From: a bacterium
GTDB taxonomy: Bacteria > Patescibacteriota > Minisyncoccia > Phycocordibacterales > Phycocordibacteraceae
Length of the DNA: 64,000 nt
Direction of reading: 5' to 3'
NCBI GenBank assembly: GCA_037200965.1
Contig: JBBCGK010000001.1
Coordinates: 433,992 to 497,991, forward strand
Below, piece by piece: positions 38,559 to 54,068 of the stretch; position 1 is the stretch's first letter, and every line of letters starts with the position of its first letter. The notes below the pieces were generated by a model. The model saw nothing but the letters and a program-made list of their open reading frames with translations. It made no database searches and was not told the DNA's origin. The position numbers were made by a program, and so were the translations under genes.

Positions 38559-38594
38559 GTTGCACAACCTCCTTTTTACGAACGATCCTGCAGG
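38559..38594. repeat. Array repeat R1 (36 nt, perfect)
   Basis: Exact sequence match. Confidence 0.95.
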
Positions 38595-38603
38595 TTAAAA
38601 GCC

Positions 38604-38912
38604 GTGACTGATTTTCATCGAAAGCACGGCTACGACGTGGGGACCGGGAACATGGCGGTCATGTCGCTCAGAATTGGACTACTCATAGAAGAACTGGGTG
38701 AACTCCACGCCGTGGTTTCAAAGGGTGTTGGCGACATTTCAGAGGAACACGCAGACCTCTTGTATCTACTTCTTGGAAACTGCGTCACGCTTGGTATTGA
38801 TATAGAAACTGCTTTCTTTGCAAAACATGCCATTAACATGCGGAGGGAAGCCAAGGTAGTGAGGGGGAACCGCCGTGTATCGGATTGGTCCCATGAAAAA
38901 TCTCAGGAATGA
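38604..38912 (+). CDS. MazG-like nucleoside triphosphate pyrophosphohydrolase (MazZ-like)
   Basis: ...LIEELGELHAVVSKGVGDISEEHADLLYLLLGNCVTLGID... is the MazG EExxE/D helix pattern. ~100 aa; 4-nt overlap with the downstream PurA-like gene. Confidence 0.55.
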   Translation: MTDFHRKHGYDVGTGNMAVMSLRIGLLIEELGELHAVVSKGVGDISEEHADLLYLLLGNCVTLGIDIETAFFAKHAINMRREAKVVRGNRRVSDWSHEKSQE

Positions 38913-39940
38913 AAGCTACAGTCATCATCGGTGCGCAGTATGGCAGCGAAGGAAAAGGTAAGATTGCAGCTTATCTTTCAGATGAGTTCGCTCGTGCAGT
39001 TCGAACTGGCGGGCCAAACTCGGGGCATACCGTCGAGCGCAATGGCACGTTCTATCAAGTTCGAGCGGTCCCTAGTGCCTTCGTGAACCAACAATGTCGC
39101 CTCGCGATTGGTGCCGGGGCCATAATAAACACTGCCGTACTATTAGGAGAATTAACGGCATGTGGTATTGTCGAGGGGCGTTTGATAGTTGACCCTCAGG
39201 CTGTCATAATTGATGAAGAATATCAAAATTCGGAACTAGATTTAATCAGTTCGATTTCGTCCACCGGACAAGGCGTTGGTGCAGCAATCGCAGCTAAGGT
39301 CTTACGTCGGAAAGTAACTCTCGCAAGAGACGTGCCCGAGTTGCGGCCACTGCTTGCCGATGTTGCTGGCACGATCAATTCCGAACTCCAACAAGGCCTA
39401 GCTGTAATGATTGAGGGGTCGCAAGGATTTTTCTTGAGTTTGCATCATGGTTACTATCCGTTTGTAACAGGCAGGGAAACGACCGCAAGTTCATTTTGCG
39501 CCGAAGTAGGAATCGGTCCCAAAGATGTGGGTCAAGTGATTGGAGTTCTCCGCACCCACCCGATTAGAGTTGGCGGCCCTTCGGGACCTCTTCAAGACGA
39601 AATCGATTGGCAGACCGTCACCGCCGAGTCGGGCTACCCAACACCGCTGTTAGAGATAACTACCGTTACCAAACGAATTCGACGCGTCGGGAGGTTCTCA
39701 ATGGCCGAAGCTAAACGATCTTTGATGATCAATTCGGCGACCCAAATTGCTTTAAACTTCGTCGACTACTTGGACCATGCAAACTTTGGACTTAGAAGCT
39801 ACACCGCACTGACTGCTTCAACAAAAAAATTCATCGACGCACTAGAGACACAAACGGGAGTTCCCGTTTCGCTGGTGGGCACGGGGCCCCGTAACAGCGA
39901 TATGATAGACTTACGACGCGAAAAGAACCTCCCCCATTAG
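38909..39940 (+). CDS. Short adenylosuccinate-synthetase-family protein with GSEGKGK P-loop (PurZ-like, archaeal/phage type)
   Basis: GAQYGSEGKGKI (Ser where PurA has Asp13), GGPNSGHT, EGSQGFFLSLHHGYYPFVT, RVGGPSGP, TVTKRIRRVGRF, TGPRNSD. 343 aa, lacking the long bacterial PurA insertions. Confidence 0.65.
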   Translation: MKATVIIGAQYGSEGKGKIAAYLSDEFARAVRTGGPNSGHTVERNGTFYQVRAVPSAFVNQQCRLAIGAGAIINTAVLLGELTACGIVEGRLIVDPQAVIIDEEYQNSELDLISSISSTGQGVGAAIAAKVLRRKVTLARDVPELRPLLADVAGTINSELQQGLAVMIEGSQGFFLSLHHGYYPFVTGRETTASSFCAEVGIGPKDVGQVIGVLRTHPIRVGGPSGPLQDEIDWQTVTAESGYPTPLLEITTVTKRIRRVGRFSMAEAKRSLMINSATQIALNFVDYLDHANFGLRSYTALTASTKKFIDALETQTGVPVSLVGTGPRNSDMIDLRREKNLPH

Positions 39941-39948
39941 ATACCAGC

Positions 39949-40701
39949 ATGAAAAACCAATACTTTGGCGACTTGAGCGACTATAAGAAGTACGGTTTGC
40001 TGCGCACACTTTCGATTGAGGGTGAGTGCTCGCTCACTGTGTGTTGGATGCTGACGCGAGATGATCAAAGTACCGACGGGCGGCATACAACTTATTTGGC
40101 GGACGTAAGAGAATGGCGCAACCATGAGCCGTTGGTATTTGATCTACTCGCGGACGCAGTCTTCAAAAATTCCCGTAATCTCGAAATAGTTGAAAAGTCC
40201 GGACTAATACCGAACTCAAACTACTTTCGTGAGGAAATCGGCGATGCTCCCTCCCAACGGGAAGCTTTTTTTGCCCGATTGGCAGATGAAGCCCGCAATT
40301 CTGATATTGTGTTCTTGGACCCCGACAACGGCCTTGAAGTGAAGTCAGTCCCCTATGGCTCCAAGGGAGCACATAAGTACATTTATCGGTCTGAAATCGA
40401 AAAGTTATCTCGGAATGGACTTTCAATCTTGCTGTATCAACATTTTGGTCGGAAAGAACGGTCTGAGTTTATCCGAGCTATTGCATTGAAACTCATCGAT
40501 TGGCTGAATGTGGAGGAAGTATTTTCACTTCGGACGACGCATACCGTATTTTTTCTTGTGCCGAAAGCTGCCCACAGGTCGCGAATAGATCGATCCCTCC
40601 AGGCAGTAAATAGACAATGGGGAGATAAGATCTTTATCGAGATACACTCTAAGGAGTCTGTATCAACGGTTACAACGAAAAATCAGTTAGACCTACTCTA
40701 A
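39949..40701 (+). CDS. Hypothetical protein (250 aa) completing the MazG-PurZ-like cassette
   Basis: Clean ORF 8 nt after the PurZ-like stop; lower GC; no HD motif (so not obviously DatZ); unknown function. Confidence 0.45.
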   Translation: MKNQYFGDLSDYKKYGLLRTLSIEGECSLTVCWMLTRDDQSTDGRHTTYLADVREWRNHEPLVFDLLADAVFKNSRNLEIVEKSGLIPNSNYFREEIGDAPSQREAFFARLADEARNSDIVFLDPDNGLEVKSVPYGSKGAHKYIYRSEIEKLSRNGLSILLYQHFGRKERSEFIRAIALKLIDWLNVEEVFSLRTTHTVFFLVPKAAHRSRIDRSLQAVNRQWGDKIFIEIHSKESVSTVTTKNQLDLL

Positions 40702-40774
40702 GTAAGTGAGCAACATGGATATTGGAAAGGAGCCTGACTTCGCCTCGGATGCCTACTTTGATAATCCGCAACAA

Positions 40775-40810
40775 GTTGCACAACCTCCTTTTTACGAACG
40801 ATCCTGCAGG
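40775..40810. repeat. Array repeat R2 (36 nt, perfect)
   Basis: Exact sequence match. Confidence 0.95.
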
Positions 40811-41427
40811 ACGATATCCACAAATCACTGCTGCGCAGCGCGGGCCTCGCGCATCTCTCGGCGGATGAGATTGGGGACTTGAGGGACTTGGCAGCGCATG
40901 AGCTACGGAATGAGACCGCGGACCGCGGTGGTCTCATGGCGGGATTGCGACTGCGCCTGCAACAATGCGACACACGGCTATCACGCCTTACAGACGCGCT
41001 CCTCGACCACCTCATCGAAAAGCAGGAATACGAAGCCAAGAAGGCCGCGCTCCTGGGCGAGCGGCGCGAACTGCTAGACAAACTGGAAAGCCCGGAGGCT
41101 TCGCGTCAACCCGCCGACGGCGTGCTGCAAGCATTGGAACTGCCAGATGTCGTGGAAACACGCTACGAAATGGCTTTGCCGGACCAACGGCGCCGCATTG
41201 CGTCTGCAATCGCTTGGAACCTAACTGGTAGCGGAAAAGAGGCCGTACCTGAGCTGAAATCTCCGTACCGGGAGATCGTACAGTGGCGTCTTTCCAATCC
41301 GGTGCGCCGTAACGGGGAGCGATCGGAACCTGACATAAAGCTGCTATACGAAGCGCTCAAAGAAGTCTGCCGGCGAGAAGACAAGCCGCCGCAACGTCCC
41401 CAACGTCCTGATGTCTCCGGCATATAA
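40811..41427 (+). pseudogene. 5'-truncated ORF beginning inside repeat R2 (C-terminal ~200 aa of a larger protein; coiled-coil, possibly relaxase/recombinase-associated)
   Basis: The reading frame is open from within R2 (…CTTSFLRTILQDDIHKSLLRSAGLAHL…) with no start context. Ends overlapping the T4CP-like gene. Confidence 0.35.
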
Positions 41428-42724
41428 GGCGACATACTTTTTCGAGAATTGTCGCGCCTTATGCCGCGTGAATGTCAGGCAGATGCTGTTCTGCATGGAT
41501 GCGAGCATCAGCTACTTCGCCCGCACCAACTTCCGCAACCGAAACCAGCTCTTCGGTGTGAGGCAAGCCGACCGTCTTTCGCACCTGTACGTCATCGGCA
41601 AGACTGGCACGGGCAAGTCCACCCTCCTTGAAACCCTCGCCCGGCAAGACCTTCGGGCCGGGCGCGGCTTCGCCCTCATAGACCCGCACGGCGATCTCGT
41701 GGAACGGATCGCGAGGGACGCGCCGGAAGCCGTCTATCTGAACGCCCCCGATCCCTCCCAGCCCTTCGGCTATAATCCGCTCCGGAGGGTCAGGGACGAC
41801 AAGATACCGCTTGCCGTCTCGGGCTTCCTCGAAACCCTCAAGAAGCTCTGGCCCGACGCGTGGGGCGTGCGCATGGAGCACGTCCTTAGGAATACGCTGT
41901 ATGCGCTATTCGAGCAGGAGGATGCGCGGCTTCCCGATATCCTCCGCCTCTATGCCGACGAGACATACCGGAAGGCGCTCGCCAAGGGGATTAGGAACGA
42001 TACCGTCCGCCGCTTCTGGCTCCATGAGTTCGAGCACTTCCACTTTCGCCAGAGGGCGGACGCCGTGGCTCCGATACAAAACAAGATCGGGGCGCTCCTT
42101 GCCGACCCCACGCTCTATCGCATCCTCGTCGAGCCAAAGGAGGATATCCGCTTCCGTGCCCTCATGGACGGCGGCGGGGTTCTTCTGGTCAATCTCTCGA
42201 AGGGCAAACTTGGCGAGGACAGCTCGCACATCCTCGGCGCGCTCATCGTCTCGACCCTGGGCCTTGCTGCCTTTAGTCGGGCCGACAGTCCCCCAACCTC
42301 CCGCCGCCCTTTCTTCGTCTATATCGACGAATTCCAGTCCTTCACGACCCTTATGCTCGCCGACATGATGTCGGAGCTGCGGAAGTACGGCGTGGGCCTT
42401 ACCTTGGCGCACCAATATATGCACCAGCTTGAACCCGAGATACGGCATGCGGTTCTGGGGAACGCTGGGACGCTCATATCATTCCGTGTTGGCCCCGAGG
42501 ATGCGTCAATCCTGGCGAAGGAGTTTCAGCCGACGTTTGACACACACGATCTCCTGAACCTGCCTAACCACCATATCTATCTGAAGCTGATGATTGATGG
42601 GGTGCCGGGCGGGGCGTTTAGTGCAAATACAGTCGATCATTCGACGCGGGGAGAGACAAAGCTCGCACCGCTACGAAGGACTTCAGACTTGAATGCGGGC
42701 GAAAGCGCGTCTGACTATGTGTGA
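41411..42724 (+). CDS. FtsK/HerA-superfamily ATPase resembling type IV secretion coupling protein (TraD/TraG/VirD4-like, no TM domain)
   Basis: Walker A YVIGKTGTGKSTLLETL; Walker B FFVYIDEFQSF; C-terminal LAHQYMHQL similar to the T4CP QS..QL motif. Confidence 0.55.
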   Translation: MSPAYKATYFFENCRALCRVNVRQMLFCMDASISYFARTNFRNRNQLFGVRQADRLSHLYVIGKTGTGKSTLLETLARQDLRAGRGFALIDPHGDLVERIARDAPEAVYLNAPDPSQPFGYNPLRRVRDDKIPLAVSGFLETLKKLWPDAWGVRMEHVLRNTLYALFEQEDARLPDILRLYADETYRKALAKGIRNDTVRRFWLHEFEHFHFRQRADAVAPIQNKIGALLADPTLYRILVEPKEDIRFRALMDGGGVLLVNLSKGKLGEDSSHILGALIVSTLGLAAFSRADSPPTSRRPFFVYIDEFQSFTTLMLADMMSELRKYGVGLTLAHQYMHQLEPEIRHAVLGNAGTLISFRVGPEDASILAKEFQPTFDTHDLLNLPNHHIYLKLMIDGVPGGAFSANTVDHSTRGETKLAPLRRTSDLNAGESASDYV

Positions 42725-42859
42725 GCGGGATCACGTTTTTTTGCAGATGGCACGCCCGCGTGGGCTGTTTTGGTAATTGCCATAGCGTCTTGGCAACAAC
42801 TGGGCGTCAGTACCTGGCTTCCCTCACAGGTTGAATATATTACAGTATAGCTCAACCAT

Positions 42860-43864
42860 ATGTTGAGTCGCCGCATGCCCGGTATTACCGAATTACTTTT
42901 GAAAATCGCGCCCAAGATCGGCGCAAAAGTGCTGATCGAGCCTGAGTGGGGCTACGTCGGGCAAATCGCCTTCCGAAGCGGTCGCAAGCGGTACTTCCGG
43001 TTCTCCAGCGTTGACGTGAATACGCTGGGCGCATCGGAAGTCGCGAAGGACAAAGATTTTGCGAACTTCTTCATGAAGCACATGGGTTATCCCATCGTGA
43101 AAGGAAAAACGTTCTTCCGGGACGACTGGGCAGAGACAATCCGCTCCAAGCGAAAGATCACGGCCGCCTATCGATACGCGCGACGGCTGGGATTTCCGGT
43201 GATTGTGAAGCCTAACAGCGGCAGTCAGGGGAAAGCAGTATGCTTGGCTCGCACGAAGCGTCAATTCTATCGCGGAATGCGGGCGACCTTTGAGGTGGAC
43301 AAAGTCGCGCTTGTCCAAATACCTGTTTCAGGAAAAGACTACCGCATCGTGGTCTTGGACCGAGAAATCATTTCGGCGTACTACAGGGTTCCGCTAAGCG
43401 TCGTCGGCAATGGAAAAGCTTCCGTAGCGGCGTTGCTCAAGTCGAAGCAGAAAGAGTTTCGGCGCGCCGGGCGCGACACGGCGATCAGGGCCGACGATCC
43501 GCGCATAGCGGAAAAGCTCGAGCATCAGGGACTGAGCTTCGCTTCCGTTCTCCGAAAGGATCAAAAGGTTTTTCTTTTGGATAACGCCAACCTTTCGACG
43601 GGCGGCGAATCGGAAGACGTAACGGAAAGCGTGCACAAGGAGTTCAGGAAAATCGCGGTGTCGCTTACGAGGGATATGGGACTGCGCCTGTGCGGCGTCG
43701 ATCTCATGATAGACGGGGATATCTCGGAGCCGCCCAAAACGTATTGGGTGCTTGAAGTCAATTCGGCCCCGGGGCTCGATCATTATGCGAAAAGCGGCGC
43801 GGCACAAAACAAAATCGTCGAAAAGATGTATACGACGGTGCTTAAGAGCTTGGATCGTGACTAG
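42860..43864 (+). CDS. ATP-grasp family enzyme (RimK/cyanophycin-synthetase-like ligase)
   Basis: ...GFPVIVKPNSGSQGKAV..., ...DYRIVVLDREIISAYYR..., C-terminal ...LCGVDLMIDGD...YWVLEVNSAPGL. Confidence 0.55.
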   Translation: MLSRRMPGITELLLKIAPKIGAKVLIEPEWGYVGQIAFRSGRKRYFRFSSVDVNTLGASEVAKDKDFANFFMKHMGYPIVKGKTFFRDDWAETIRSKRKITAAYRYARRLGFPVIVKPNSGSQGKAVCLARTKRQFYRGMRATFEVDKVALVQIPVSGKDYRIVVLDREIISAYYRVPLSVVGNGKASVAALLKSKQKEFRRAGRDTAIRADDPRIAEKLEHQGLSFASVLRKDQKVFLLDNANLSTGGESEDVTESVHKEFRKIAVSLTRDMGLRLCGVDLMIDGDISEPPKTYWVLEVNSAPGLDHYAKSGAAQNKIVEKMYTTVLKSLDRD

Positions 43865-43956
43865 CTCGTGTATAGTCCATACGACCGATCTTCCTGACAC
43901 CAATAGGCATCGGCCAAATCGTGATTGCTGACCAACGTTTTGCGCCGAGCGACCGC

Positions 43957-44247
43957 CTAGTCGGGATCGTAGGGATTATTGGTATCCGTGCCATTGCGCG
44001 AGGAACCAGACGGCGAACTATACGGATCGACGCGCTTGTGACCTTGCTCGCCCGTATAGGGGTTCACGTTTGGATACGTCGAGTAATTGTTATAGGGATT
44101 GCTGTCAGGCGATGAGCGATGGTGTGGCGGAACATACGTGCCGTCCTTCCGCACATAGCCTCTGACACTGACGTCCTTCGCTGCCGCCTCAGCGCCAGTG
44201 GCCAGCAGGGTCGTGAAGACCAAAAGGGCGGCAAAAATCTTGCGCAT
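43957..44247 (-). CDS. Small secreted Pro/Tyr/Asn-rich protein
   Basis: Signal peptide MRKIFAALLVFTTLLATGAEAAA; then low-complexity PYNNYSTYPNVNPY. Confidence 0.4.
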   Translation of the reverse strand: MRKIFAALLVFTTLLATGAEAAAKDVSVRGYVRKDGTYVPPHHRSSPDSNPYNNYSTYPNVNPYTGEQGHKRVDPYSSPSGSSRNGTDTNNPYDPD

Positions 44248-44357
44248 ATTAACTCCGATCAAAAATGCGGCTCGATGCTAGTTTAGTGGCTGGCGCAGGG
44301 CCAGAGGAATAATCTTCGCAAGCGTGCGTCAGGCCACGCCCTACGGTAACGCGTCGA

Positions 44358-45341
44358 TCAGTTCGCCTCGTCGAAAATCCCATTCAGGATCGCCCCAAGC
44401 CGCACCCCTGCCGCCTGCAAGCGCTCTTCCACGATGGCGGCGCGGTCTTCCTTGTAGTTGCCGTCGGGCGCGAAGACGCGAACGGCGCCACCGGTATACG
44501 TCTCGCTGTCTTCGGAATAGCGGCAGGTGGTGCCGGAGAGCGTACAGTATCCGGTGTCGGGCGCGCGGGAGACGGTGAGCGATTCGTTGGCCCATACCAT
44601 CGGATCGAGCGACGCCTTCCACGTTGCCCGCTGCTCGTCCGTGATTTCCTTTTGAAGAACATTGCCAAACGCCTCGCGCCCAGGGCCTGCTGGCTTCGTC
44701 TGCGCGATGTGGAGATCACGCATGACTTGTTCGGGAATGCAGGTGTCCCACACGGTATGGAGCGCGGTTTTGCCGTCATAGGCGCAGCCCGAGACGCCCT
44801 TCACGCCGACGCTGTTGCCGCCGCGATCATCGGCATACGAAATGTGGAGCGGCTGGTGTATGTCGCCGAGCCAGTGCCCGAGGAATTTGAGGGCCGTGCG
44901 CTTCTTGTCGGTTGAGGCATTCGGGTCTTTGAGGATGGCGATATCGGCGGGGATGGCCGTGAAAAGGCACGTCGCCGCATTCACGCACTTGGCCTCGGGG
45001 AAGCTCGTCCAATCGCGCGGCATATTGATGAAGTGCTCCGCCCTCCGGCTGCTTTGCACATCGCCCTTCTCGTCCGGCCAGGTGCAGGCCCCGTGGAAGG
45101 TTCTCGGTATCTCCTTGCCGTCAGCGTCCTTAAGCGGGGTTTCTGAGCGGATAAGCTTGTTGACCGCCTTGCGGGCCGTCGGCGTGAGCTCCTTGTATGC
45201 GATCTCGCAGACCGCCTCGTGGCCGGTGCCGCCGAAGGCGAGGGCACCGCTCGTTGTGAGACAAAGACTGACGAAGCCACCAGCTCCAAACAGCGCAAGA
45301 AGAACCCGCCGACGTCCACCCATGTACCCGCTCCCCCTCAC
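44358..45341 (-). CDS. Secreted S1/P1-family zinc-dependent nuclease
   Basis: N-terminal signal, then the ...FGGTGHEAV... (W/GH motif) and ...LKFLGHWLGDIHQPLH... zinc-ligand motifs characteristic of S1-P1 nuclease. Confidence 0.7.
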   Translation of the reverse strand: MRGSGYMGGRRRVLLALFGAGGFVSLCLTTSGALAFGGTGHEAVCEIAYKELTPTARKAVNKLIRSETPLKDADGKEIPRTFHGACTWPDEKGDVQSSRRAEHFINMPRDWTSFPEAKCVNAATCLFTAIPADIAILKDPNASTDKKRTALKFLGHWLGDIHQPLHISYADDRGGNSVGVKGVSGCAYDGKTALHTVWDTCIPEQVMRDLHIAQTKPAGPGREAFGNVLQKEITDEQRATWKASLDPMVWANESLTVSRAPDTGYCTLSGTTCRYSEDSETYTGGAVRVFAPDGNYKEDRAAIVEERLQAAGVRLGAILNGIFDEAN

Positions 45342-45453
45342 TATTCGTGCCCAGGATGCGAGGACTCGCCCTAGCCGAAGAACGGATGATGCCCGGATGA
45401 TTTCACCCGTCCAAGAGGAATGTGCGCCTTAGACTTCGTATCGGGCCGGGCCT

Positions 45454-46359
45454 ATGCTGCTTCTATTGGTGGGGTGTTTCTCAGGGGGTATTGGCATGAC
45501 TAGCGGCACGCGAGTTTTTCCGACGCGTTCGTATCGGGCATCATTTCCCATTCATGCGCTTCTTGCCGTCTTCGCGCTTCTCGTCGCGGGTGCGTATGGC
45601 CCGGCCGGTTCGGCCTTGGCCGCGACCAGCGCGGCGTCCTTCTGCCTTGACGCATGCCCCGAGGGCGCGCCGGCAAAGAACAAGACGGTCGTGCACCATG
45701 TCTATGCGCTCAGCTCGAACCCCGACACGAAATTCGCCGATTGGGTCGCGTACAAGATCTCCAAAGCGACCATCGGGTCGAACTGTTCGCGCAAGTGGGC
45801 GAAGGACCCGGACCTAGCGGCCGGCACCACGCTCAAGCCCGCCGATTACAAGGACATCAGTGCGGCGCTCCAGTCCGACCGGGGCCATCAAGCGCCCTTG
45901 GCAAGCCTATGCGGCTCGAAGTTCAATGCCGAGGCGAACTATCTCTCGAACATCACCCCACAAAAGTCCGACCTCAATCAGGGCGCATGGGTGCGGCTCG
46001 AAACCGCCGAACGCAAGCTCATTACGGGCGGCACCGCGAAGACCGTGTATACCGTCACCGGGACGCTCTACGAAAAGAAGATGCCGCCGCTTCCCAAGGC
46101 GAGCGTCAAGCACAAAGTCCCTTCGGGCTATTGGAAGATCGTCGCCGTCGAGACGGACGACGGGATCGACGCCGTGGCGTTCGTCATGCCGCAGGATACA
46201 CCCAAAGCCGCCGATTATTGCGAAACGCGCACCACCATCGGCGACGTTGAGACGCGCTCGGGCCTCAAGTTCTTCCTCGATCTCAACGAGACCGACCGCA
46301 CGCAGCTTGAGGAGAGCGAGGCGAAGACCGGCCTCTATGAGGATTTGGGCTGCGAGTAG
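45454..46359 (+). CDS. Secreted DNA/RNA non-specific endonuclease (Serratia NucA family)
   Basis: Signal-anchor, then SDRGHQAPLAS (the DRGH catalytic motif) and downstream Asn/Glu residues. Confidence 0.7.
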   Translation: MLLLLVGCFSGGIGMTSGTRVFPTRSYRASFPIHALLAVFALLVAGAYGPAGSALAATSAASFCLDACPEGAPAKNKTVVHHVYALSSNPDTKFADWVAYKISKATIGSNCSRKWAKDPDLAAGTTLKPADYKDISAALQSDRGHQAPLASLCGSKFNAEANYLSNITPQKSDLNQGAWVRLETAERKLITGGTAKTVYTVTGTLYEKKMPPLPKASVKHKVPSGYWKIVAVETDDGIDAVAFVMPQDTPKAADYCETRTTIGDVETRSGLKFFLDLNETDRTQLEESEAKTGLYEDLGCE

Positions 46360-46381
46360 CACGAGCGCGGGAAGATACGGC

Positions 46382-46669
46382 ATGCGCAAGGCATTCATAC
46401 TGACGCTGGTGGCGTTCTCCGCACTTGCGGCAACCCCACTCATCGCGCGGACCACGGATGCGGAAGTCCGGGGACAAATGATCCGCGAGTCCATCGCAAG
46501 CTATCCCGGCAACTGCCCGTGTCCGTACAGCACGATGCGAAACGGGCGCTCCTGCGGCGGGCGAAGCGCGTACAGTCGGCCCGGCGGATATGCTCCGCTG
46601 TGCTACCCGTCTGACGTTTCGGACGATATGGTGCGCGGCTATCGAAGCACGCATGGGCTCGGGAACTGA
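46382..46669 (+). CDS. Small secreted Cys-rich protein (95 aa)
   Basis: Signal peptide MRKAFILTLVAFSALAATPLIA; 6 Cys; begins 20 nt after the nuclease stop. Confidence 0.35.
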   Translation: MRKAFILTLVAFSALAATPLIARTTDAEVRGQMIRESIASYPGNCPCPYSTMRNGRSCGGRSAYSRPGGYAPLCYPSDVSDDMVRGYRSTHGLGN

Positions 46670-46865
46670 TCGATCCGATTGATATCTGGCGAAGCGCGCA
46701 AACGCTCATCTCGCTCTATGGCGATGAGGCGGAACAGTTCGCGCTTCGCCGCGCCGCTACCCTGCTCGGCGAAGGAGACCGGGAGGGCCATGCGGCAATG
46801 GCAAGCGTTGCGGAAGCGGTGAAGAAGCTGCGGCAGGAGCGGCCCGAAAGCGGCGATGCCGTCCA

Positions 46866-47273
46866 CTAGTCGGCGTCCGGCAGCTTATCGGAAGCCTCGG
46901 CAAACTCCCGCACCAGCGCGACGATGTGCTTGCGCCGGGCGGGCGACTTGACCTGCGCGAACGCTCTCGCAAGCGCCCGCCCGTCGGCGCTCGAAAGCAG
47001 CGGCATTTCTTCCGCGAACAGTGCCGAACGGGCTTTGTCGTATGCCTCGGAAACGAAGTATTCCCAGGGCAGATCAAGCACCACCATCATCCGCAACAGC
47101 GCTTCAAGCGGCAGCCGGTTGGTTCCCTTTTCATACTTCTGCATCTGTTGGAAACTAACGCCGAGGCGCTTTCCGAGAGCGAGTTGCGACAGGCCGCGCA
47201 GCGTCCGTGCGGCAAATATCTTTTGGCCGATAATCTTATTGATCTCTGACGAACTGTGCTTGCGCGGGGCCAT
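46866..47273 (-). CDS. XRE-family (Cro/C1-type HTH) transcriptional regulator
   Basis: IGQKIFAARTLRGLSQLALGKRLGVSFQQMQKYEKGTNRLPLEAL. Confidence 0.6.
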   Translation of the reverse strand: MAPRKHSSSEINKIIGQKIFAARTLRGLSQLALGKRLGVSFQQMQKYEKGTNRLPLEALLRMMVVLDLPWEYFVSEAYDKARSALFAEEMPLLSSADGRALARAFAQVKSPARRKHIVALVREFAEASDKLPDAD

Positions 47274-47349
47274 TCTCAATCCCGTTATACTATCGATCTC
47301 GCAAATTCTATGGCGCGAAAACCCCATTGTCGCGCGCAATCTCAGCCTG

Positions 47350-48333
47350 TTACGCCTCCTTCATCCACTCCCGGTGCATGCGCTCCCATTCCGGGCGCGG
47401 CGCTTCGAACTCTTCCCGGAACCACGGCATATGCTCTGGCACGAAGACCGTCTCGCGCAGGAACGCGAGCGTCGATTTGACGGCGGGTTTTGCGGCATGC
47501 ACGCGGTTATATGAGATGTAGAGCTTGCCGGGAAGGCGAAACGCAAGCGGAAGGGCGACGAGGTCCGGGTCGCCAAGCGCGTGGTAGGTAGGTGCGAGCG
47601 CGATGCCCGCGCCAAAATGCAGGCACCGCTCGAAGAAGCTCGTCTGGTTGGTGAGGATCGACACGTTCTTGACGACGTTTCCGCCCGACCATGCGGCCCA
47701 GGATGCCGTGCGCGTCTGATACTGGGCGAGATCGAGCAACCGGTGCTCGCTAAGCGCTTCGCTCGTCTGCGGCGTCCCGTGTTTTTGCAGATAGGACTTC
47801 GACGCGAACAGGGCGTAATGGACGGTCGCGAGCGGCCTCGACACCTGATCCGAATTTCCCGGATCGTAGAAGTGGATGCGGATGTCGAAGCTGTCGCTTC
47901 GGGGCGCGGTGATGTCCTGATCGGGCGATACCTTGAGCTCAATGTTCGGATGCCGTTCGAGGAAGCTCGGCATGAACTGCGCCAGCCAGAGGCTCGCAAC
48001 CCCGTCCGCGACCAGGATGCGGCAGTCGCCTTGAACGCTGCCTCCGCTGTCCTTCGCGTCCCTGCGAAGGAGCGCAATGCATTTGCGCGCCTCAAACGCG
48101 TTCGGAAGCAGACGTTCGCCGAGGTCGGTGAGCGCGCAGCCGTCGGTGCCGCGTATGAATACGCGCCCGCCGATCCACTGTTCGAAGCTGCGCAGCCGCT
48201 TGCTCACGGTTGCCTGCGTTGATCCGAGCATCGCCGCGGCCCGCTTGATGCTGCCGCCCTCGGCGATTGCGAGAAAATAGCGGAGATCGTTCCACTGCTC
48301 GGGCGAGGGGTCATCACTATTGGAAAGTACCAT
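47350..48333 (-). CDS. LysR-family transcriptional regulator
   Basis: N-terminal HTH WNDLRYFLAIAEGGSIKRAAAMLGSTQATVSKRLRSFEQWIGGRVFIRG... plus a substrate-binding domain; divergent from the GNAT gene. Confidence 0.7.
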   Translation of the reverse strand: MVLSNSDDPSPEQWNDLRYFLAIAEGGSIKRAAAMLGSTQATVSKRLRSFEQWIGGRVFIRGTDGCALTDLGERLLPNAFEARKCIALLRRDAKDSGGSVQGDCRILVADGVASLWLAQFMPSFLERHPNIELKVSPDQDITAPRSDSFDIRIHFYDPGNSDQVSRPLATVHYALFASKSYLQKHGTPQTSEALSEHRLLDLAQYQTRTASWAAWSGGNVVKNVSILTNQTSFFERCLHFGAGIALAPTYHALGDPDLVALPLAFRLPGKLYISYNRVHAAKPAVKSTLAFLRETVFVPEHMPWFREEFEAPRPEWERMHREWMKEA

Positions 48334-48434
48334 CTTCCGTCCCTTGGCTTCCGGGCGGCGATAATCGAATGGCAATTTAAGCTCCGGCAACAAAAAAATG
48401 CATAAGGCGCCAGGCGGCGCCGTGGAGTAATTCC

Positions 48435-49601
48435 TTGGAAAAGAACGATTTTAGCGCGATACGAAGCGGTACCTACGGGCCCGAACATGCCGCAGCGCAT
48501 CCCGATGGGGGAAGCGTATGGCTGCGTCCGGCCGGGGTCGGGGATATTCCGTTTGTGCATAGCCTGACCGTCTCGGACATCTCCGCCGAAACGGCACCGG
48601 AGGAGGTTATTCGGGCTGTTCACGCCCGCAATCCCGATGCCCTGTGGCTTATCGAGCGCCAAAGAGGCGGGGAGCCACCGGCCCCTATCGGCTATTTCGG
48701 CTTCCTGCCGCTCACCGATCCCGGTCTCGACGCGCTCAAGGAAGGCGCGCTCGACCGCAAGAGCCCGCCGCTTGAGCTTGTGGCCGAGGGCGGCACGCGT
48801 CCGGCGGCGGTGTACGTGTGGGGCGTCGTGGCGCATCGCCTAGTGCGGGTCACCGCGCCGCTCCTCACCCTCGCGCTTTCGCCTTACATCGACGTTCCCT
48901 TCTACACCGTCTCCCAGACCGAAGAGGGGCTGCGCTCGGCCCGTAGGCGCGGCTTCGTGCCGGTCGATGCGCGGATCGGCGACCGGGGCGGGCTCGTGCT
49001 GCTGCCGCTTGGCAGCCTTCTTGCGCCGCCGCCAAGCAAAGTCGCGCAGCTCGACGTGATCGTGGCCTCGAACGCCGAGCACCTCATGATGTGCGCCTAT
49101 GTTCGCGGCGTGGTGTTCGGCGCGGAGCAGCTCGCCCCCTACCGCGAGGAATTCGACGGCAACGACTTCTGCGGCATCCAGCTTCTGGGGTTCGTGAACA
49201 ACGAGCCTGCGGCAGTGCTTCGCATCCGTCACTTCGCGTCATTCGCGAAATTCGAGCGGTATGCCGTGCTCGAGCGCTTCCGCAAAACGCGGATCAAGTA
49301 CGAAATCCTGGAGTTCGGAATCGAGCTGTGCCGCCGCAAGGGATACACGAAGCTCTACGCGCACTCGCAGGTGCGCCTCGTCCGCTTCTATGAGCGGTTC
49401 GGCTTTCGTCTGTGCGCCGCGCAGCGTCCGCTCGTCTTCGCGGATCACGAATACGTCGAGATCGAAGCCGACCTCGCGCCGCATCCCGAGGCGATCACGA
49501 CCGCCACCGATCCCTACGTGATCATCCGACCCGAAGGGGCGTGGGACAGGCGCGGCGTTCTTGACCAGTCAGCGGCACGGCCCGCGACTAATCCCGTCTA
49601 G
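48435..49601 (+). CDS. GNAT-family acetyltransferase (two GNAT-like halves)
   Basis: C-terminal half ...AVLRIRHF...ELCRRKGYTKLYAHSQVRLVRFYERFGF fits the acyl-CoA N-acyltransferase fold; divergently paired with LysR. Confidence 0.55.
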   Translation: MEKNDFSAIRSGTYGPEHAAAHPDGGSVWLRPAGVGDIPFVHSLTVSDISAETAPEEVIRAVHARNPDALWLIERQRGGEPPAPIGYFGFLPLTDPGLDALKEGALDRKSPPLELVAEGGTRPAAVYVWGVVAHRLVRVTAPLLTLALSPYIDVPFYTVSQTEEGLRSARRRGFVPVDARIGDRGGLVLLPLGSLLAPPPSKVAQLDVIVASNAEHLMMCAYVRGVVFGAEQLAPYREEFDGNDFCGIQLLGFVNNEPAAVLRIRHFASFAKFERYAVLERFRKTRIKYEILEFGIELCRRKGYTKLYAHSQVRLVRFYERFGFRLCAAQRPLVFADHEYVEIEADLAPHPEAITTATDPYVIIRPEGAWDRRGVLDQSAARPATNPV

Positions 49602-49603
49602 GA

Positions 49604-49840
49604 GTGCTCGACATGGCCGGAACGCTCGATTGCTTTGTCCGCCTTGTTGAACTCGACACCTGCGTGCGTGAGTTGGCACAGCGCAAGCGCGCGAATAATA
49701 GGATCAGCATATCCGATCTTGATGACGTTCTCCTGGCGCTTGCTGAAGCTCGGGAAACGATCCAGGACGACGCGTATGACGAGATGGCGAGGCGGCGAGC
49801 GATAACAACGGCGGACATAATGCAGTTCGCAAAAGATTAG
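49604..49840 (+). CDS. Small hypothetical protein (78 aa)
   Basis: ORF 2 nt after the GNAT stop; no domain. Confidence 0.25.
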   Translation: MLDMAGTLDCFVRLVELDTCVRELAQRKRANNRISISDLDDVLLALAEARETIQDDAYDEMARRRAITTADIMQFAKD

Positions 49841-50107
49841 CGAAAGCGCGCGGCTCTATTCAAAACGCGGCCTACGACAAGTTCGCAACTATTCGTCCGA
49901 CAACACTCGCCCGATAACGGATCATTCGGCAACCAGAGGATAATGAGTATATCGCGGGAGCGAAGCATAGGAGACGATGCAGTGCATAGTCCGTCATAAA
50001 TTCAACGGCGGCATCCTGATGGTAGCTGTATAACAGCGTGGTGCCGGAACTTCCCCTTGTAGCCAATACCGGGCTTCGTTACAAAGCTTCAAGGGGAGGC
50101 TATATGC

Positions 50108-53982: not shown

Positions 53983-54068
53983 GATCGCTTCCTATTAGCC
54001 ATCAATGAAAAGGCCCCATAGCCGGGGCCTTAAAGTAGGCAAAATGCCAAATTGCAACGCTGATGCCG

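What the first reader, a model, noticed from the sequence alone, without database searches (positions are those of the whole stretch)
38604..40701. Oldest segment (A) carries a MazG-like + PurZ-like module reminiscent of diaminopurine (Z-base) phage genomes
Immediately after R1 there is a ~100-aa MazG-type NTP pyrophosphohydrolase. It is translationally coupled by a 4-nt overlap to a 343-aa PurA-family protein whose P-loop reads GSEGKGK instead of GDEGKGK, and which has the short archaeal/phage architecture.

To my recollection, a compact PurA homologue with the catalytic Asp replaced, paired with a MazG-like dNTP pyrophosphohydrolase, is the PurZ-MazZ module that Z-genome phages use to make 2-aminoadenine DNA. 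If so, this array segment is a fragment of such a phage genome, or a co-opted Z-base pathway, sitting in a CRISPR-like locus. The segment looks low-GC (~48-50% by eye).
Basis: partly seen in the sequence, partly recalled or inferred. Interest (0 to 1): 0.8.

Follow-up and report, generated by a model that had tools for sequence, protein, structure and literature searches.

The report
Truncated PurZ-like nucleotide cassette fragment
A 2.2-kb piece of foreign DNA in an uncultured bacterium carries an enzyme closely resembling the one some phages use to make the unusual DNA base 2-aminoadenine, but it is a cut-off fragment of a larger, uncharacterised gene cassette that is widespread in bacteria and archaea, not a phage Z-genome module.

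Summary
The three + strand ORFs, the 4-nt ATGA overlap, the GSEGKGK P-loop, the short 343-aa PurA architecture and the low GC (48.6% against about 58% in the flanks) are all present.

The PurA-like protein is not a housekeeping PurA. All 116 close homologues with a readable P-loop have Ser or Gly at the Asp13 position, while 120 of 120 archaeal short PurAs have Asp. It groups with phage PurZ/PurZ0 and away from archaeal PurA (split found in 199 of 200 bootstraps). It also carries the PurZ-group signature: S13, T251, I at Ec271 and the 2-residue insertion after V221. It keeps the GTP-type Asp, as PurZ0 does.

It nevertheless fails NCBIfam's PurZ cutoff (219 bits against 300) and lies outside the crown phage clade. 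At least 216 GTDB species genomes carry relatives.

MazG is not a constant partner. The third gene is not DatZ-like; it has an RlmJ-like methyltransferase fold and is a recurrent partner.

The closest intact cassette reads kinase–MazG fusion, PurZ-like, ORF3, P450 and PurB. In the window the kinase domain, the P450 body and PurB are missing, cut at two copies of a perfect 36-nt repeat. Six such repeats lie next to cas1 and a cas2-like ORF.

The parts
38559..38594 (+). Repeat copy R1. This is the perfect 36-nt core GTTGCACAACCTCCTTTTTACGAACGATCCTGCAGG and forms the left boundary of segment A. It lies 16 nt from the tatD start codon (38542, - strand).
   Evidence: Six identical copies, with 0 expected by chance.
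38604..38912 (+). Stand-alone MazG/HisE-type NTP pyrophosphohydrolase domain (102 aa). It is most likely the 3' remnant of a kinase-MazG fusion gene whose kinase half was lost at R1.
   Evidence: Pfam PRA-PH scores 29.5 bits. The best PDB hit is S-2L MazZ 7ODY, at 21.4 bits. The 12 best of 1.84 billion representatives are 209-369 aa and match only through their C-terminal ~95 residues. The L177 fusion aligns to the window only from its residue 184. The metal ligands E29, E30, E33, E48 and D51 are conserved relative to MazZ (with residues named in PMC8342488).
38909..39940 (+). Short (343 aa) PurA-family ligase lacking the catalytic Asp13 (Ser13). It is a member of the Asp-less PurZ group but lies outside crown phage PurZ/PurZ0. 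Its active-site signature is PurZ0-like, with a predicted GTP donor.
39949..40701 (+). ORF3 (250 aa), a conserved partner of the PurZ-like gene. It has a class-I methyltransferase-like Rossmann fold, closest to RlmJ. It matches no Pfam, NCBIfam, PHROG or PADLOC model.
40706..40774 (+). Probable remnant of the first ~22 codons of the cassette's P450 gene, which then runs into repeat R2.
   Evidence: The frame +1 translation ...DFASDAYFDNP... compares with the L177 P450 N-terminus ...LFGSSEFFANP..., and it sits in the same position (5 nt after the ORF3 stop, against 12 nt in L177). tblastn finds no P450 body anywhere in the window. The similarity is short and was judged by eye.
40775..40810 (+). 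Repeat copy R2, the right boundary of segment A.

Best explanation
Segment A (about 38595-40774) is a 2.2-kb piece of horizontally acquired, low-GC DNA bounded by two copies of a perfect 36-nt repeat. It is a doubly truncated fragment of a five-gene nucleotide-modifying cassette. The intact form of that cassette is seen in the closest relatives.

The intact cassette contains:
- a P-loop kinase-MazG fusion;
- a PurZ-group ligase;
- an RlmJ-fold protein (ORF3);
- a cytochrome P450;
- in the closest locus only, an adenylosuccinate lyase (PurB).

What is shown:
- The ligase belongs to a large clade of short PurA homologues, found in bacteria, archaea and viral contigs, that have lost the catalytic Asp13.
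- That clade shares the derived active-site changes of phage PurZ/PurZ0.

What is inferred, step by step:
1. The MazG domain hydrolyses a (d)NTP, probably (d)GTP, to the monophosphate.
2. The ligase uses GTP (it retains the Asp equivalent to E. coli D333) to activate O6 of a 2-amino-6-oxopurine nucleotide. It then adds aspartate, giving an N6-succino-2-aminoadenine nucleotide.
3. PurB releases the 2-aminoadenine (Z) nucleotide.
4. The kinase re-phosphorylates it.
5. ORF3 and the P450 tailor or use the product.

In this window the kinase domain, the P450 and PurB are absent. The three surviving ORFs are intact and keep every family-invariant residue, but they cannot run the whole pathway alone.

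The biological role of the cassette family is not settled. It could be antiviral nucleotide manipulation, DNA modification by a mobile element, or secondary metabolism.
For: (1) Not housekeeping PurA.
- 109 GSEGKG plus 7 GGEGKG and no GDEGKG among the 120 best homologues. By contrast, 120 of 120 archaeal short PurAs have GDEGKG.
- The split {all Ser/Gly-type, including known PurZ/PurZ0} against {archaeal Asp-type plus Salmonella PurA} appears in 199 of 200 NJ bootstraps.

(2) PurZ-type active site.
- Window S13 corresponds to S-2L S23 and phiVC8 S14.
- Window T251 corresponds to S-2L T273, where archaeal and E. coli PurA have Gly.
- Ile at Ec271, Ser at Ec275, Lys at Ec302, Ile at Ec304, Tyr at Ec334 and Gly at Ec414.
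- A 2-residue insertion after V221, the same length as in PurZ0.
- D286 corresponds to Ec D333, which is kept in PurZ0 and PurA and replaced by N or Q in ATP-using PurZ.
- The residue roles come from PMC8342488, section 8.

(3) Cassette.
- L177/L178 read kinase-MazG (294 aa), PurZ-like (60% identical), ORF3 (48% identical), P450 (402 aa) and PurB. The PurB passes the TIGR00928 cutoff, 380.6 against 326.2.
- The same kinase(-MazG)/PurZ-like/ORF3/P450 order occurs in L006, L007, L011, L013 and L017, from Bacteroidota, Gammaproteobacteria, Parvibaculum, Allosphingosinicella and Chlamydiae.

(4) Truncation.
- tblastn of the L177 proteins finds the fusion only from residue 184 onward, and finds no P450 body or PurB in 64 kb.
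- The best MazG relatives are fusions.
- Another segment end is also an arbitrary breakpoint: the SpvB/FG-GAP ORF is cut mid-motif at R3.

(5) Foreign origin. GC is 48.6% against about 58% in the flanks.

(6) Intactness. The window sequences are included in the invariant columns of alignments A1 and A2.
Against: - No biochemical evidence exists for any member of this cellular clade, so the substrate (dGMP, GMP or another nucleotide) is inferred from residues only.
- By overall similarity the protein is closer to archaeal PurA than to PurZ. It scores 361.8 bits on PRK04293, just under the 368 cutoff, against 219.3 on the PurZ model. It scores 235 bits to P. horikoshii PurA against 149 to phiVC8 PurZ.
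- The tree is neighbour-joining, has a single long-PurA outgroup, and samples a narrow set of archaeal PurAs.
- Stand-alone MazG homologues of 106-115 aa exist. The 102-aa ORF covers the whole domain, so it could be a natural stand-alone gene and not a remnant.
- The P450-remnant call rests on about 10 similar residues.
- PurB is adjacent in only 4 of 80 genome loci and P450 in only 5 of 80. The 'five-gene cassette' therefore describes only the sub-lineage closest to the window.
- The guanine-contacting D60 of MazZ is Gly58 here, so (d)GTP specificity is not supported.
Confidence: 0.6

Rival explanations
1. One reading: the segment is a fragment of a Z-genome (2-aminoadenine DNA) phage. It would carry that phage's PurZ-MazZ module, with the third gene acting as a DatZ analogue.
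For: - Ser replaces Asp13 and the PurZ-group signature is present.
- The best solved-structure match of the MazG ORF is S-2L MazZ.
- The domain-only MazG profile also detects S-2L MazZ (E = 6.6e-5).
- A 57%-identical homologue, with ORF3 next to it, lies in 73-107 kb contigs full of small unannotated ORFs that look like phage.
- 120 IMG/VR contigs encode relatives.
- L177 has a P22 antirepressor-domain gene nearby.
Against: - It fails the curated PurZ model, while real PurZ and PurZ0 pass.
- It lies outside the crown phage clade, falling inside it in only 43 of 200 bootstraps.
- It is at most 36% identical to any PurA-like protein in 50,697 phage records.
- No DatZ, DpoZ, DutZ or DmtZ and no phage structural gene is in the segment.
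- ORF3 has an RlmJ-like Rossmann fold, not an HD fold.
- ORF3 homologues were found in none of the 80 IMG/VR loci.
- The partners (P450, kinase fusion) are unknown in described Z-clusters (PMC12884076, PMC8342488).
Confidence: 0.15
2. The cassette family is an antiviral, nucleotide-based immune system. On infection it would divert (d)GTP into N6-succino- or 2-aminoadenine nucleotides, either depleting the pool or producing a toxic analogue. This is analogous in logic to defensive dCTP deaminases, dGTPases and viperins. Segment A would be a broken copy of such a system.
For: - The cassette kinase domain matches the PADLOC model of the defensive dCTP deaminase over its N-terminal region (56.9 and 42.7 bits). 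That kinase domain is essential for defence (bioRxiv 10.1101/2021.04.26.441389).
- The dNK-type partner matches PADLOC VakA.
- A dCTP-deaminase/dUTPase-fold partner is present in 57 of 80 genome loci and a kinase in 61 of 80.
- ORF3 homologues on their own sit beside SMODS, Schlafen/AlbA_2, HNH, AbiEii, Fic and HipA genes.
- RmuC is a neighbour in Nitrospira.
- The distribution across phyla is patchy and accessory.
Against: - None of the three window proteins, nor the DCD-like, P450 or ORF3 partners, hits any PADLOC model.
- No paper links a PurA-like enzyme to defence.
- No statistical test of defence-island enrichment was done.
- Relatives also occur in phage-like contigs, which fits a counter-defence role equally well.
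Confidence: 0.2
3. It is a housekeeping or salvage adenylosuccinate synthetase of a reduced-genome bacterium. Ser-for-Asp would be a tolerated lineage-specific variant, and MazG a generic house-cleaning enzyme.
For: - The score on the archaeal short PurA model is only 6 bits below its cutoff.
- NCBI annotates the protein as adenylosuccinate synthetase.
- Most IMP- and phosphate-binding residues are kept: N38, H41, T129, R143, Q224, T239, R305.
Against: - The catalytic base Asp13 is missing in the whole clade, yet present in 120 of 120 archaeal PurAs. It is also reported as 99% conserved across 251 PurAs in PMC12884076.
- The gene lies in a low-GC insert bounded by repeats, not in a purine operon.
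- Homologues occur in Paenibacillus, Clostridium, Nitrospira, Granulicella and Pirellulaceae. From general knowledge, not tested here, these lineages carry a normal long PurA.
- The MazG domain's nearest relatives are fused to kinases and encoded next to PurZ-like genes.
Confidence: 0.03
4. The cassette is a small biosynthetic cluster for a modified purine nucleoside or nucleotide natural product. PurA-like and PurB-like enzymes would exchange the 6-oxo group for a 6-amino group on a purine analogue. From memory, ToyG and ToyF do this in toyocamycin biosynthesis. The P450 and the methyltransferase-fold protein would be tailoring enzymes.
For: - A P450 is present (157 bits to the cyclodipeptide-synthase-associated P450 subfamily and 132 bits to TxtE, both below their cutoffs).
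- A methyltransferase-fold protein is present.
- A dedicated PurB is present.
- The genes have a compact operon-like order.
Against: - P450 is present in only 5 of 80 genome loci and PurB in only 4 of 80.
- No transporter, regulator or resistance gene is seen in the cassette.
- The rest of the family pairs the ligase with dCTP-deaminase-like proteins, kinases and an RNase_H_2/DUF429 protein, which does not look like secondary metabolism.
Confidence: 0.08

Closest known systems
PurZ0, the GTP-using succino-amino-deoxyadenylate synthase of Arthrobacter, Gordonia and Microbacterium Z-genome phages (PDB 7VF6; Tong et al. 2023, cited in PMC12884076)
   Same: - Short PurA fold.
- Ser at the Asp13 position.
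- Thr at S-2L position 273.
- The same 2-residue insertion after the conserved Val (RV[GA]G-x-SG).
- Ile at Ec271 and Ser at Ec275.
- Retained Asp at Ec333, the guanine-recognising residue of the donor site.
   Different: - Only about 30-34% identical; 128 bits to 7VF6.
- Fails the NCBIfam PurZ cutoff that PurZ0 passes.
- Lies outside the crown clade.
- The partners are a kinase-MazG fusion, an RlmJ-fold protein and a P450, not DutZ, DmtZ or DpoZ.
- It is chromosomal, in cellular genomes.
PurZ-MazZ-DatZ 'Z-cluster' of cyanophage S-2L and vibriophage phiVC8 (PMC8342488)
   Same: - A MazG-type pyrophosphohydrolase sits directly beside the Asp-less PurA homologue (here overlapping it by 4 nt).
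- MazZ is the closest solved structure to the window's MazG domain.
- The metal-binding Glu/Asp residues are conserved.
   Different: - Gene order is reversed: MazG is upstream here and downstream in S-2L.
- MazZ D60, which contacts the guanine 2-amino group, is Gly here.
- There is no DatZ.
- The donor-site residue is Asp, not Gln or Asn.
- The MazG domain is ancestrally fused to a kinase.
Archaeal short adenylosuccinate synthetase (P. horikoshii PurA, PDB 2D7U/5K7X; NCBIfam PRK04293)
   Same: - Highest overall similarity (235 bits; 361.8 bits on the family model).
- Same length and domain deletions.
   Different: - Catalytic Asp13 is replaced by Ser.
- Eight further active-site-shell substitutions are shared with PurZ.
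- It is separated from these proteins by a split with 199/200 support.
- It scores below the model's cutoff.
[quoted passage not shown]
   Same: - Same diagnostic Ser/Gly.
- Same basal position relative to phage PurZ/PurZ0.
- The clade found here includes archaeal members: Nanoarchaeota, Halobacteria, Archaeoglobaceae, Methanophagales and a Promethearchaeota ('Loki') MAG.
   Different: - That paper lists four archaeal sequences. Here at least 216 GTDB species genomes, mostly bacterial, encode relatives carrying the queried Ser-type (GSEGKGK) P-loop.
- Conserved gene partners are described here.
- I could not read Tong et al. 2023 to see how far they characterised those sequences.
RlmJ (23S rRNA m6A2030 methyltransferase, PDB 6QE5) and Legionella LPL1258 (2OO3), compared with ORF3
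   Different: - 9% identity.
- The ORF3 family profile finds no PDB sequence.
- Foldseek hits are weak.
- The invariant motif is F-x-D-P-D-N-G, whereas from memory amino-methyltransferases have DPPY. Methyltransferase activity is therefore unproven.

Membership tests
Phage PurZ / PurZ0 (succino-amino-deoxyadenylate synthase) | PurA-fold enzyme with the catalytic Asp13 (E. coli numbering) replaced by Ser (phiVC8 S14, S-2L S23) | tested here: met
   Window S13 aligns with S-2L S23, H1 S14 and E. coli D13. The motif is GSEGKGK.
Phage PurZ / PurZ0 (succino-amino-deoxyadenylate synthase) | PurZ-specific substrate-contacting Thr (S-2L T273), plus the insertion after the conserved Val that pushes the loop towards C2' | tested here: met
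   Window T251, where archaeal and E. coli PurA have Gly. The 2-residue insertion RVGG-PSG has the same length as in PurZ0 Lasagna and is shorter than in S-2L. Residue roles are from PMC8342488.
Phage PurZ / PurZ0 (succino-amino-deoxyadenylate synthase) | Score at or above the curated NCBIfam NF038379 cutoff (300 bits) | tested here: not met
   219.3 bits. Controls: Vibrio phage H1 PurZ 397.1 and Arthrobacter phage Lasagna PurZ0 366.1.
Phage PurZ / PurZ0 (succino-amino-deoxyadenylate synthase) | Placement inside the clade spanned by characterised PurZ and PurZ0 | tested here: not met
   The smallest clade holding the known PurZ/PurZ0 has 46 members, all viral. The window falls inside it in 43 of 200 bootstraps. 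It is, however, on the PurZ side of the 199/200 split from Asp-type PurA.
Phage PurZ / PurZ0 (succino-amino-deoxyadenylate synthase) | Encoded in a phage genome with dATP/dGTP pool enzymes and often DpoZ (DatZ/MazZ, or DutZ/DmtZ) | tested here: not met
   No HD-domain, dUTPase, NDT or PolA gene lies in segment A. The context is a bacterial chromosome between tatD and cas2/cas1.
Phage PurZ / PurZ0 (succino-amino-deoxyadenylate synthase) | Catalyses dGMP + Asp + NTP -> N6-succino-2-amino-dAMP | not testable with these tools
   This needs an enzyme assay.
ATP-using PurZ (as opposed to PurZ0) | Donor-site Asp (Ec D333) replaced by Asn or Gln | tested here: not met
   Window D286. The residue is D in 79 of 79 cellular-clade members, N in Vibrio H1 and Q in S-2L.
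Housekeeping archaeal short PurA (NCBIfam PRK04293) | GDEGKG P-loop with catalytic Asp, and a score at or above 368 bits | tested here: not met
   Ser replaces Asp. The score is 361.8 bits against a cutoff of 368. 120 of 120 archaeal PurAs have GDEGKG.
MazZ (MazG-HisE (d)GTP pyrophosphohydrolase of Z-phages) | All-alpha NTP-PPase with the conserved metal-binding acidic residues (S-2L E34/E35/E38/E50/D53) | tested here: met
   Window E29, E30, E33, E48 and D51 align with them (residue list from PMC8342488). Pfam PRA-PH scores 29.5 bits.
MazZ (MazG-HisE (d)GTP pyrophosphohydrolase of Z-phages) | [quoted passage not shown] | tested here: not met
   They align with Y54 and G58 in the window. The alignment is short and only 43% identical over 58 residues, so the register could be off by a residue.
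MazZ (MazG-HisE (d)GTP pyrophosphohydrolase of Z-phages) | Significant sequence similarity to MazZ | tested here: inconclusive
   MazZ is the best PDB hit, but only at 21.4 bits and E = 0.0026. The family profile hits S-2L MazZ at E = 6.6e-5.
DatZ (HD-domain dATP triphosphohydrolase), tested for ORF3 | HD phosphohydrolase fold and motif | tested here: not met
   No Pfam, NCBIfam or PHROG hit. The AF2 model (pLDDT 92.3) is an alpha/beta Rossmann-type fold closest to RlmJ. A functional analogy cannot be excluded.
RlmJ-like N6-adenine methyltransferases, tested for ORF3 | Class-I methyltransferase fold with SAM pocket and a DPPY-type catalytic motif | tested here: inconclusive
CRISPR array (context of the segment) | Identical direct repeats of about 23-55 nt adjacent to cas1-cas2 | tested here: met
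   Six perfect 36-nt repeats. Cas1 scores 221.5 bits on TIGR00287. A cas2-like ORF scores 18 bits, below the gathering score, and ends 32 nt from R6.
CRISPR array (context of the segment) | Spacers of roughly 26-72 nt | tested here: not met
   The intervals between cores are about 2.2, 10.9, 1.5, 1.4 and 2.9 kb. No degenerate intermediate repeats exist, even allowing 12 mismatches.

The most novel reading that the evidence does not exclude
The Asp-less short PurA homologues found in at least 216 bacterial and archaeal species genomes are the core of an undescribed cellular system. Their usual partners are defence-type nucleotide kinases, dCTP-deaminase/dUTPase-fold or MazG enzymes, and an RlmJ-fold protein. 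The system would make 2-aminoadenine-type or N6-succino purine nucleotides outside phages. It could act as an antiviral nucleotide-diversion or analogue weapon, or as a way for cells or mobile elements to put Z-like bases into nucleic acid. The copy in this window would be a 2.2-kb fragment of such a system, captured between CRISPR-type repeats by a Cas1-Cas2 module.
Probability: 0.2. Interest if true: 0.85.

Novelty: new variant of a known kind. Interest (0 to 1): 0.62.

Why it matters
Natural 2-aminoadenine DNA, and the PurZ enzymes that make it, are described as exclusive to phages (PMC13128860). The field calls 'dZ genomes' by the presence of a PurA homologue with the Ser substitution (bioRxiv 10.1101/2025.10.22.683976).

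This work shows that the same diagnostic signature defines a much larger clade that is mostly chromosomal, in bacteria and archaea. That clade has its own conserved partners, none of which belongs to the known Z-cluster. Three things follow:
- Ser-based PurZ calls in metagenomes will over-predict Z-genome phages.
- The clade is the obvious place to look for the cellular ancestor of the Z pathway, which makes the proposed 'archaeal PurA -> PurZ0 -> PurZ' route testable.
- If these enzymes do act on (d)GMP, cells or their mobile elements make Z-type nucleotides for a purpose that is still unknown.

The particular copy in this window is broken and is unlikely to be physiologically important on its own.

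Tried and rejected
- PADLOC, PHROGs and NCBIfam gave nothing for ORF3. PADLOC gave nothing for any of the three proteins.
- Rfam found nothing in 36-60 kb.
- The promoter and terminator scan of segment A was at chance level, so nothing can be said about expression.
- An exact search for the 36-mer in the metagenome and viral collections found no copies. The repeat could not be traced to a known element.
- The first profile iteration for 'MazG' absorbed the fused kinase domain and inflated the count to 35 loci. I replaced it with a domain-only profile, which gave 7 loci.
- Biopython neighbour-joining timed out. I replaced it with my own vectorised NJ. No ML program was available.
- The AFDB50 fold library was unavailable.
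- Tong et al. 2023 (Nat Microbiol), the key PurZ0 paper, is not held. What I say about it comes from papers citing it and from memory.
- A guess that the organism is a Kaiserbacterium led nowhere. The source labels it only 'MAG: bacterium', with a longest contig of 0.96 Mb for the recA record. Candidate-phyla-radiation membership is only a suspicion.
- I considered an integron, tandem integrative elements at one att site, or an assembly or adapter artefact for the repeats. The artefact is unlikely, because a second assembly independently joins tatD-R1-segment A and breaks at R2. Integron attC sites are not identical to each other. No tyrosine or serine recombinase gene is intact in the window; only a C-terminal fragment is present (phrog_95).
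- The weak in-frame similarity between the repeat-encoded peptide VAQPPFYERSCR and the kinase-MazG linker of L177 was judged not significant.

Full report
**1. What is in the sequence**

The region holds three co-directional ORFs:
- 38604-38912 (102 aa, GTG start);
- 38909-39940 (343 aa);
- 39949-40701 (250 aa).

The first two overlap by ATGA.

The first ORF matches the MazG/HisE all-alpha pyrophosphohydrolase superfamily. Pfam PRA-PH scores 29.5 bits, above its cutoff. Pfam MazG scores 17.8 bits, below its cutoff. The second ORF matches adenylosuccinate synthetase (PF00709, E = 6.9e-59) and reads GSEGKGK in the P-loop. The third ORF matches nothing in Pfam, NCBIfam, PHROGs or PADLOC.

The segment is 48.6% GC, against 57.8% and 58.8% for the chromosomal flanks. 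It lies between two copies of a perfect 36-nt repeat, at 38559-38594 and 40775-40810. The window contains exactly six copies of that repeat.

The left neighbour is a housekeeping block, tatD-rpsF-ssb-rpsR, on the minus strand. An independent NCBI assembly (GCA_015655515.1) carries tatD-R1-segment A on one contig, which ends at R2. So the arrangement is not an artefact of a single assembly.

**2. The PurA-like protein is not a housekeeping PurA**

By overall similarity it is closest to archaeal short PurA:
- 235 bits to P. horikoshii PurA, 149 to phiVC8 PurZ, 128 to PurZ0 (7VF6) and 113 to S-2L PurZ;
- 361.8 bits on NCBIfam PRK04293 (cutoff 368) and 219.3 bits on the PurZ model (cutoff 300).

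It therefore fails both curated families. As controls, genuine PurZ (Vibrio phage H1) and PurZ0 (Arthrobacter phage Lasagna) score 397 and 366 bits on the PurZ model.

The data say otherwise:
- Among the 120 best homologues, at 45-61% identity, 109 have GSEGKG, 7 have GGEGKG and none has Asp.
- All 120 best homologues of P. horikoshii PurA have GDEGKG.

I built a neighbour-joining tree of 179 sequences. It comprised the window protein, 78 proteins from GTDB genomes, 80 from IMG/VR contigs, 7 from reference records (5 characterised PurZ/PurZ0, one Bacillus-phage PurA-like and Salmonella PurA) and 13 archaeal Asp-type PurAs (12 from the database search plus P. horikoshii). The split separating all Ser/Gly-type proteins, including characterised PurZ and PurZ0, from archaeal Asp-type PurA plus the outgroup appears in 199 of 200 bootstraps. 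The window protein lies outside the smallest clade that contains the characterised PurZ and PurZ0; it falls inside that clade in only 43 of 200 replicates.

This is the position that PMC12884076 reports for four 'PurZ-related' archaeal sequences with Ser or Gly.

**3. Active-site comparison**

I used the residues that the S-2L structure paper singles out (PMC8342488, section 8), mapped onto the alignment.

| Position | Window | Phage PurZ / PurZ0 | Archaeal and E. coli PurA |
|---|---|---|---|
| S-2L S23 = phiVC8 S14 = Ec D13 | S13 | Ser | Asp |
| S-2L T273 = Ec G298 | T251 | Thr | Gly |
| After conserved Val (Ec V273) | 2 extra residues (RVGG-PSG) | same length in PurZ0 | no insertion |
| S-2L Q308 = Ec D333 | D286 | N or Q in PurZ; D in PurZ0 | Asp |

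Further PurZ-group states are shared by the window. They are invariant or dominant in the 80 viral sequences and absent from archaeal PurA: Ile at Ec271, Ser at Ec275, Lys at Ec302, Ile at Ec304, Tyr at Ec334 and Gly at Ec414.

Ec D333 recognises the guanine of the donor nucleotide. Its retention suggests a GTP donor, as reported for PurZ0.

So the enzyme has a PurZ0-like active-site signature on a sequence that is otherwise close to archaeal PurA. Whether it uses dGMP is an inference and cannot be tested with these tools.

**4. Where the family lives and what accompanies it**

A scan of one genome per GTDB species found 216 genomes encoding a relative carrying the queried Ser-type (GSEGKGK) P-loop. 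They include Dehalococcoidia, Acidobacteriota, Nitrospira, Paenibacillus, Bacteroidota, Chlamydiae, Saccharibacteria, Planctomycetota, Nanoarchaeota, Halobacteria, Archaeoglobaceae and a Promethearchaeota ('Loki') MAG. IMG/VR holds 120 more. No cultured-phage protein is more than 36% identical.

I ran profile searches of the ORFs within 5 kb of the gene in the 80 best genome loci:

| Partner | Loci (of 80) |
|---|---|
| P-loop nucleotide kinase | 61 |
| dCTP-deaminase/dUTPase-fold protein, often with a C-terminal membrane segment | 57 |
| RNase_H_2 + DUF429 protein | 38 |
| ORF3 homologue | 24 |
| dNK-type kinase | 18 |
| Cytochrome P450 | 5 |
| PurB | 4 |

With a domain-only profile, a MazG domain is found next to the gene in only seven loci. 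These are the window's own contig, L006, L064, L177, L178, a weak case in L037, and S-2L MazZ itself. The conserved association is therefore ligase + kinase + a (d)NTP-processing enzyme + often ORF3. It is not ligase + MazG.

**5. The window copy is a fragment**

The closest relatives (60% identity) are in L177 and L178. There the order is kinase-MazG fusion (294 aa), ligase (343 aa), ORF3 (253 aa) and P450 (402 aa), with a PurB on the other strand. That PurB passes the purB equivalog cutoff, 380.6 against 326.2 bits.

The same kinase(-MazG)/ligase/ORF3/P450 order is seen in Bacteroidota, Gammaproteobacteria, Parvibaculum, Allosphingosinicella and Chlamydiae loci.

The evidence for truncation is as follows:
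- Searching 1.84 billion representatives with the window's 102-aa MazG ORF, the twelve best hits are 209-369 aa and align only through their C-terminal ~95 residues.
- tblastn of the L177 proteins against the whole window aligns the fusion only from residue 184 onward.
- The same search finds no P450 body and no PurB anywhere in the 64 kb.
- Five nucleotides after the ORF3 stop, a short ORF encodes ...DFASDAYFDNP... This resembles the L177 P450 N-terminus ...LFGSSEFFANP... for about 22 codons before it runs into R2. That last similarity is short and was judged by eye.

The MazG domain itself is complete, and stand-alone homologues of 106-115 aa exist. The ligase and ORF3 are full length, and both retain every invariant residue of their families.

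Another segment boundary in the array is also an arbitrary breakpoint. The SpvB/FG-GAP ORF is cut in the middle of an FG-GAP motif at R3. In addition, a C-terminal fragment of a serine-recombinase-like protein follows R2.

**6. The MazG-like protein and ORF3**

The best solved relative of the MazG ORF is S-2L MazZ (7ODY): 21.4 bits, E = 0.0026, and 43% identity over 58 residues. The metal-binding acidic residues align (window E29, E30, E33, E48, D51). MazZ D60, which contacts the guanine 2-amino group and is conserved in MazZ-1 (PMC8342488), aligns with Gly58. The protein is probably an active NTP pyrophosphohydrolase, but guanine specificity is not supported.

ORF3 gave a confident AlphaFold2 model (pLDDT 92.3, pTM 0.90).
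- Foldseek gives only weak matches, the best of which (TM about 0.3-0.4) are to methyltransferase-fold proteins.
- The family profile finds no PDB sequence.

ORF3 is therefore not DatZ-like, since it has no HD fold. Its invariant FxDPDNG motif sits where amino-methyltransferases carry DPPY (from memory), so methyltransferase activity is uncertain.

The ORF3 family is large (1208 hits). It also occurs without the ligase, in neighbourhoods that resemble defence islands: SMODS with Schlafen/AlbA_2 and HNH; Fic with AbiEii; HipA with DUF2726. One locus has a kinase-ligase fusion followed by DUF7002, ORF3 and DCD.

**7. What the cassette might do**

The chemistry I propose is (d)NTP to (d)NMP by MazG or the DCD-like enzyme. 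The ligase then uses GTP to succinylate C6 of a 2-amino-6-oxopurine nucleotide. PurB follows, then the kinase, and finally tailoring by ORF3 and the P450. This follows from the established PurA/PurZ mechanism and from the gene content. It is inference throughout.

Some evidence points towards an antiviral role:
- The cassette kinase matches PADLOC's model of the defensive dCTP deaminase across its kinase region (56.9 bits). That kinase domain is essential for defence (bioRxiv 10.1101/2021.04.26.441389).
- The dNK-type partner matches PADLOC VakA.

Other evidence points away from it:
- None of the core proteins is in PADLOC.
- No paper links a PurA-like enzyme to defence.
- Relatives also occur in phage-like contigs, where a DNA-modification or counter-defence role would fit equally well.

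I therefore commit only to the fragment-of-a-PurZ-group-cassette explanation (confidence 0.6). The biological role stays open, with rivals listed separately.

**8. Context**

The ORF beside the last repeat is a bona fide Cas1 (PF01867, 215.5 bits; TIGR00287, 221.5 bits). A 98-aa ORF overlaps its stop by 4 nt and gives a weak Cas2 match (18 bits, below the gathering score). It ends 32 nt from R6.

The six repeats are identical, and no degenerate copies lie between them. The 'spacers' are 1.4-10.9 kb, of differing GC, and end in truncated genes.

This is the most unusual thing in the window. 'Oldest segment' cannot be tested.

**9. Verdict**

The protein is a genuine PurZ-group enzyme with a MazZ-like neighbour. 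It is not a member of characterised PurZ/PurZ0, not part of a Z-genome phage module, and it sits in a doubly truncated cassette.
- Novelty: a new variant of a known kind. The interest lies less in this broken copy than in the large, uncharacterised cellular clade it reveals, and in the Cas1-adjacent array that holds it.

**Limits of this analysis**

- The tree is neighbour-joining, not maximum likelihood.
- Outgroup sampling is narrow.
- I could not read Tong et al. 2023.
- There is no expression or biochemical evidence.
- The host taxonomy is unknown.

Noticed in passing
window 57746-59094 (- strand) and the six repeat cores at 38559, 40775, 51744, 53328, 54739 and 57678: A bona fide cas1 (221.5 bits on TIGR00287) and an overlapping cas2-like ORF (Pfam Cas2, 18 bits, below threshold) sit 32 nt from the last of six perfectly identical 36-nt direct repeats. 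The 'spacers' are 1.4-10.9 kb, carry genes, differ in GC (48.6-59.6%) and end in truncated genes. No effector cas gene was recognised in the window. No literature on kilobase-scale spacers was found.
   Followed up: partly
window 50108-51743 (+) at repeat R3, and 40879-41427 (+) after repeat R2: The SpvB/FG-GAP toxin-complex-like ORF is cut in the middle of an FG-GAP motif exactly at R3 (...DFDGDGCTDFLGS|repeat). The ORF after R2 matches only the C-terminal part (positions 459-549 of 651) of a PHROG integrase family. Both show that segment ends are arbitrary breakpoints.
   Followed up: partly
window 40812-51743 (segment B): This 10.9-kb segment is a mixed bag. It holds a TraD/TrwB/HerA-like ATPase (41411-42724; it also hits PADLOC mad8), a cyanophycin-synthetase-like ATP-grasp (42860-43864), an S1/P1 nuclease (44358-45341, -), an Endonuclease_NS (45454-46359), an HTH protein, a LysR regulator, and a GNAT. 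GC varies from 55 to 63% within it.
   Followed up: no
window 53461-57538 (segments D and E, - strand): A weak phosphoribosyltransferase-like ORF (54069-54725) starts 13 nt from R5. A patatin-like phospholipase lies at 54605-55372. A translationally coupled pair of 523 aa and 154 aa (55506-57538) has no hit in Pfam or NCBIfam; the 523-aa member also has none in PADLOC, and the 154-aa member was not scanned there. The pair lies between R5 and R6, next to cas2.
   Followed up: no
window 38559-38603 and L177:6083-6967: The repeat, read in the MazG frame, encodes VAQPPFYERSCR. tblastn extends the alignment with the L177 kinase-MazG linker (…SRPVFFQELIERVKA…) into it. Only about 3 of 12 residues are identical, so this is probably chance. 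If real, it would mean the repeat and the cassette share sequence at the junction.
   Followed up: partly
L176:2682-4283 and P0238: Domain fusions in the family. One is a 533-aa kinase-PurZ-like fusion followed by DUF7002, ORF3 and DCD (groundwater metagenome). The other is an ORF3 homologue of 390 aa that its source labels 'alkylated DNA nucleotide flippase Atl1', which hints that ORF3 may act on bases in nucleic acid.
   Followed up: no
L004/L005 (Nitrospira tepida-type), L044 and many Acidobacteriota loci: A recurrent chromosomal cluster reads RNase_H_2+DUF429 protein (about 527 aa), kinase, PurZ-like, then a DCD-like protein with a C-terminal membrane segment. In Nitrospira it lies next to RmuC. 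It is present in 38 of 80 genome loci and matches no PADLOC system.
   Followed up: partly
L001 (GCA_015655515.1 JAATEX010000073.1) compared with the window: The short-read MAG contig stops inside repeat copy R2. This is the behaviour expected of a genuine multi-copy repeat, and it means public short-read assemblies of relatives will usually miss arrays of this kind.
   Followed up: no
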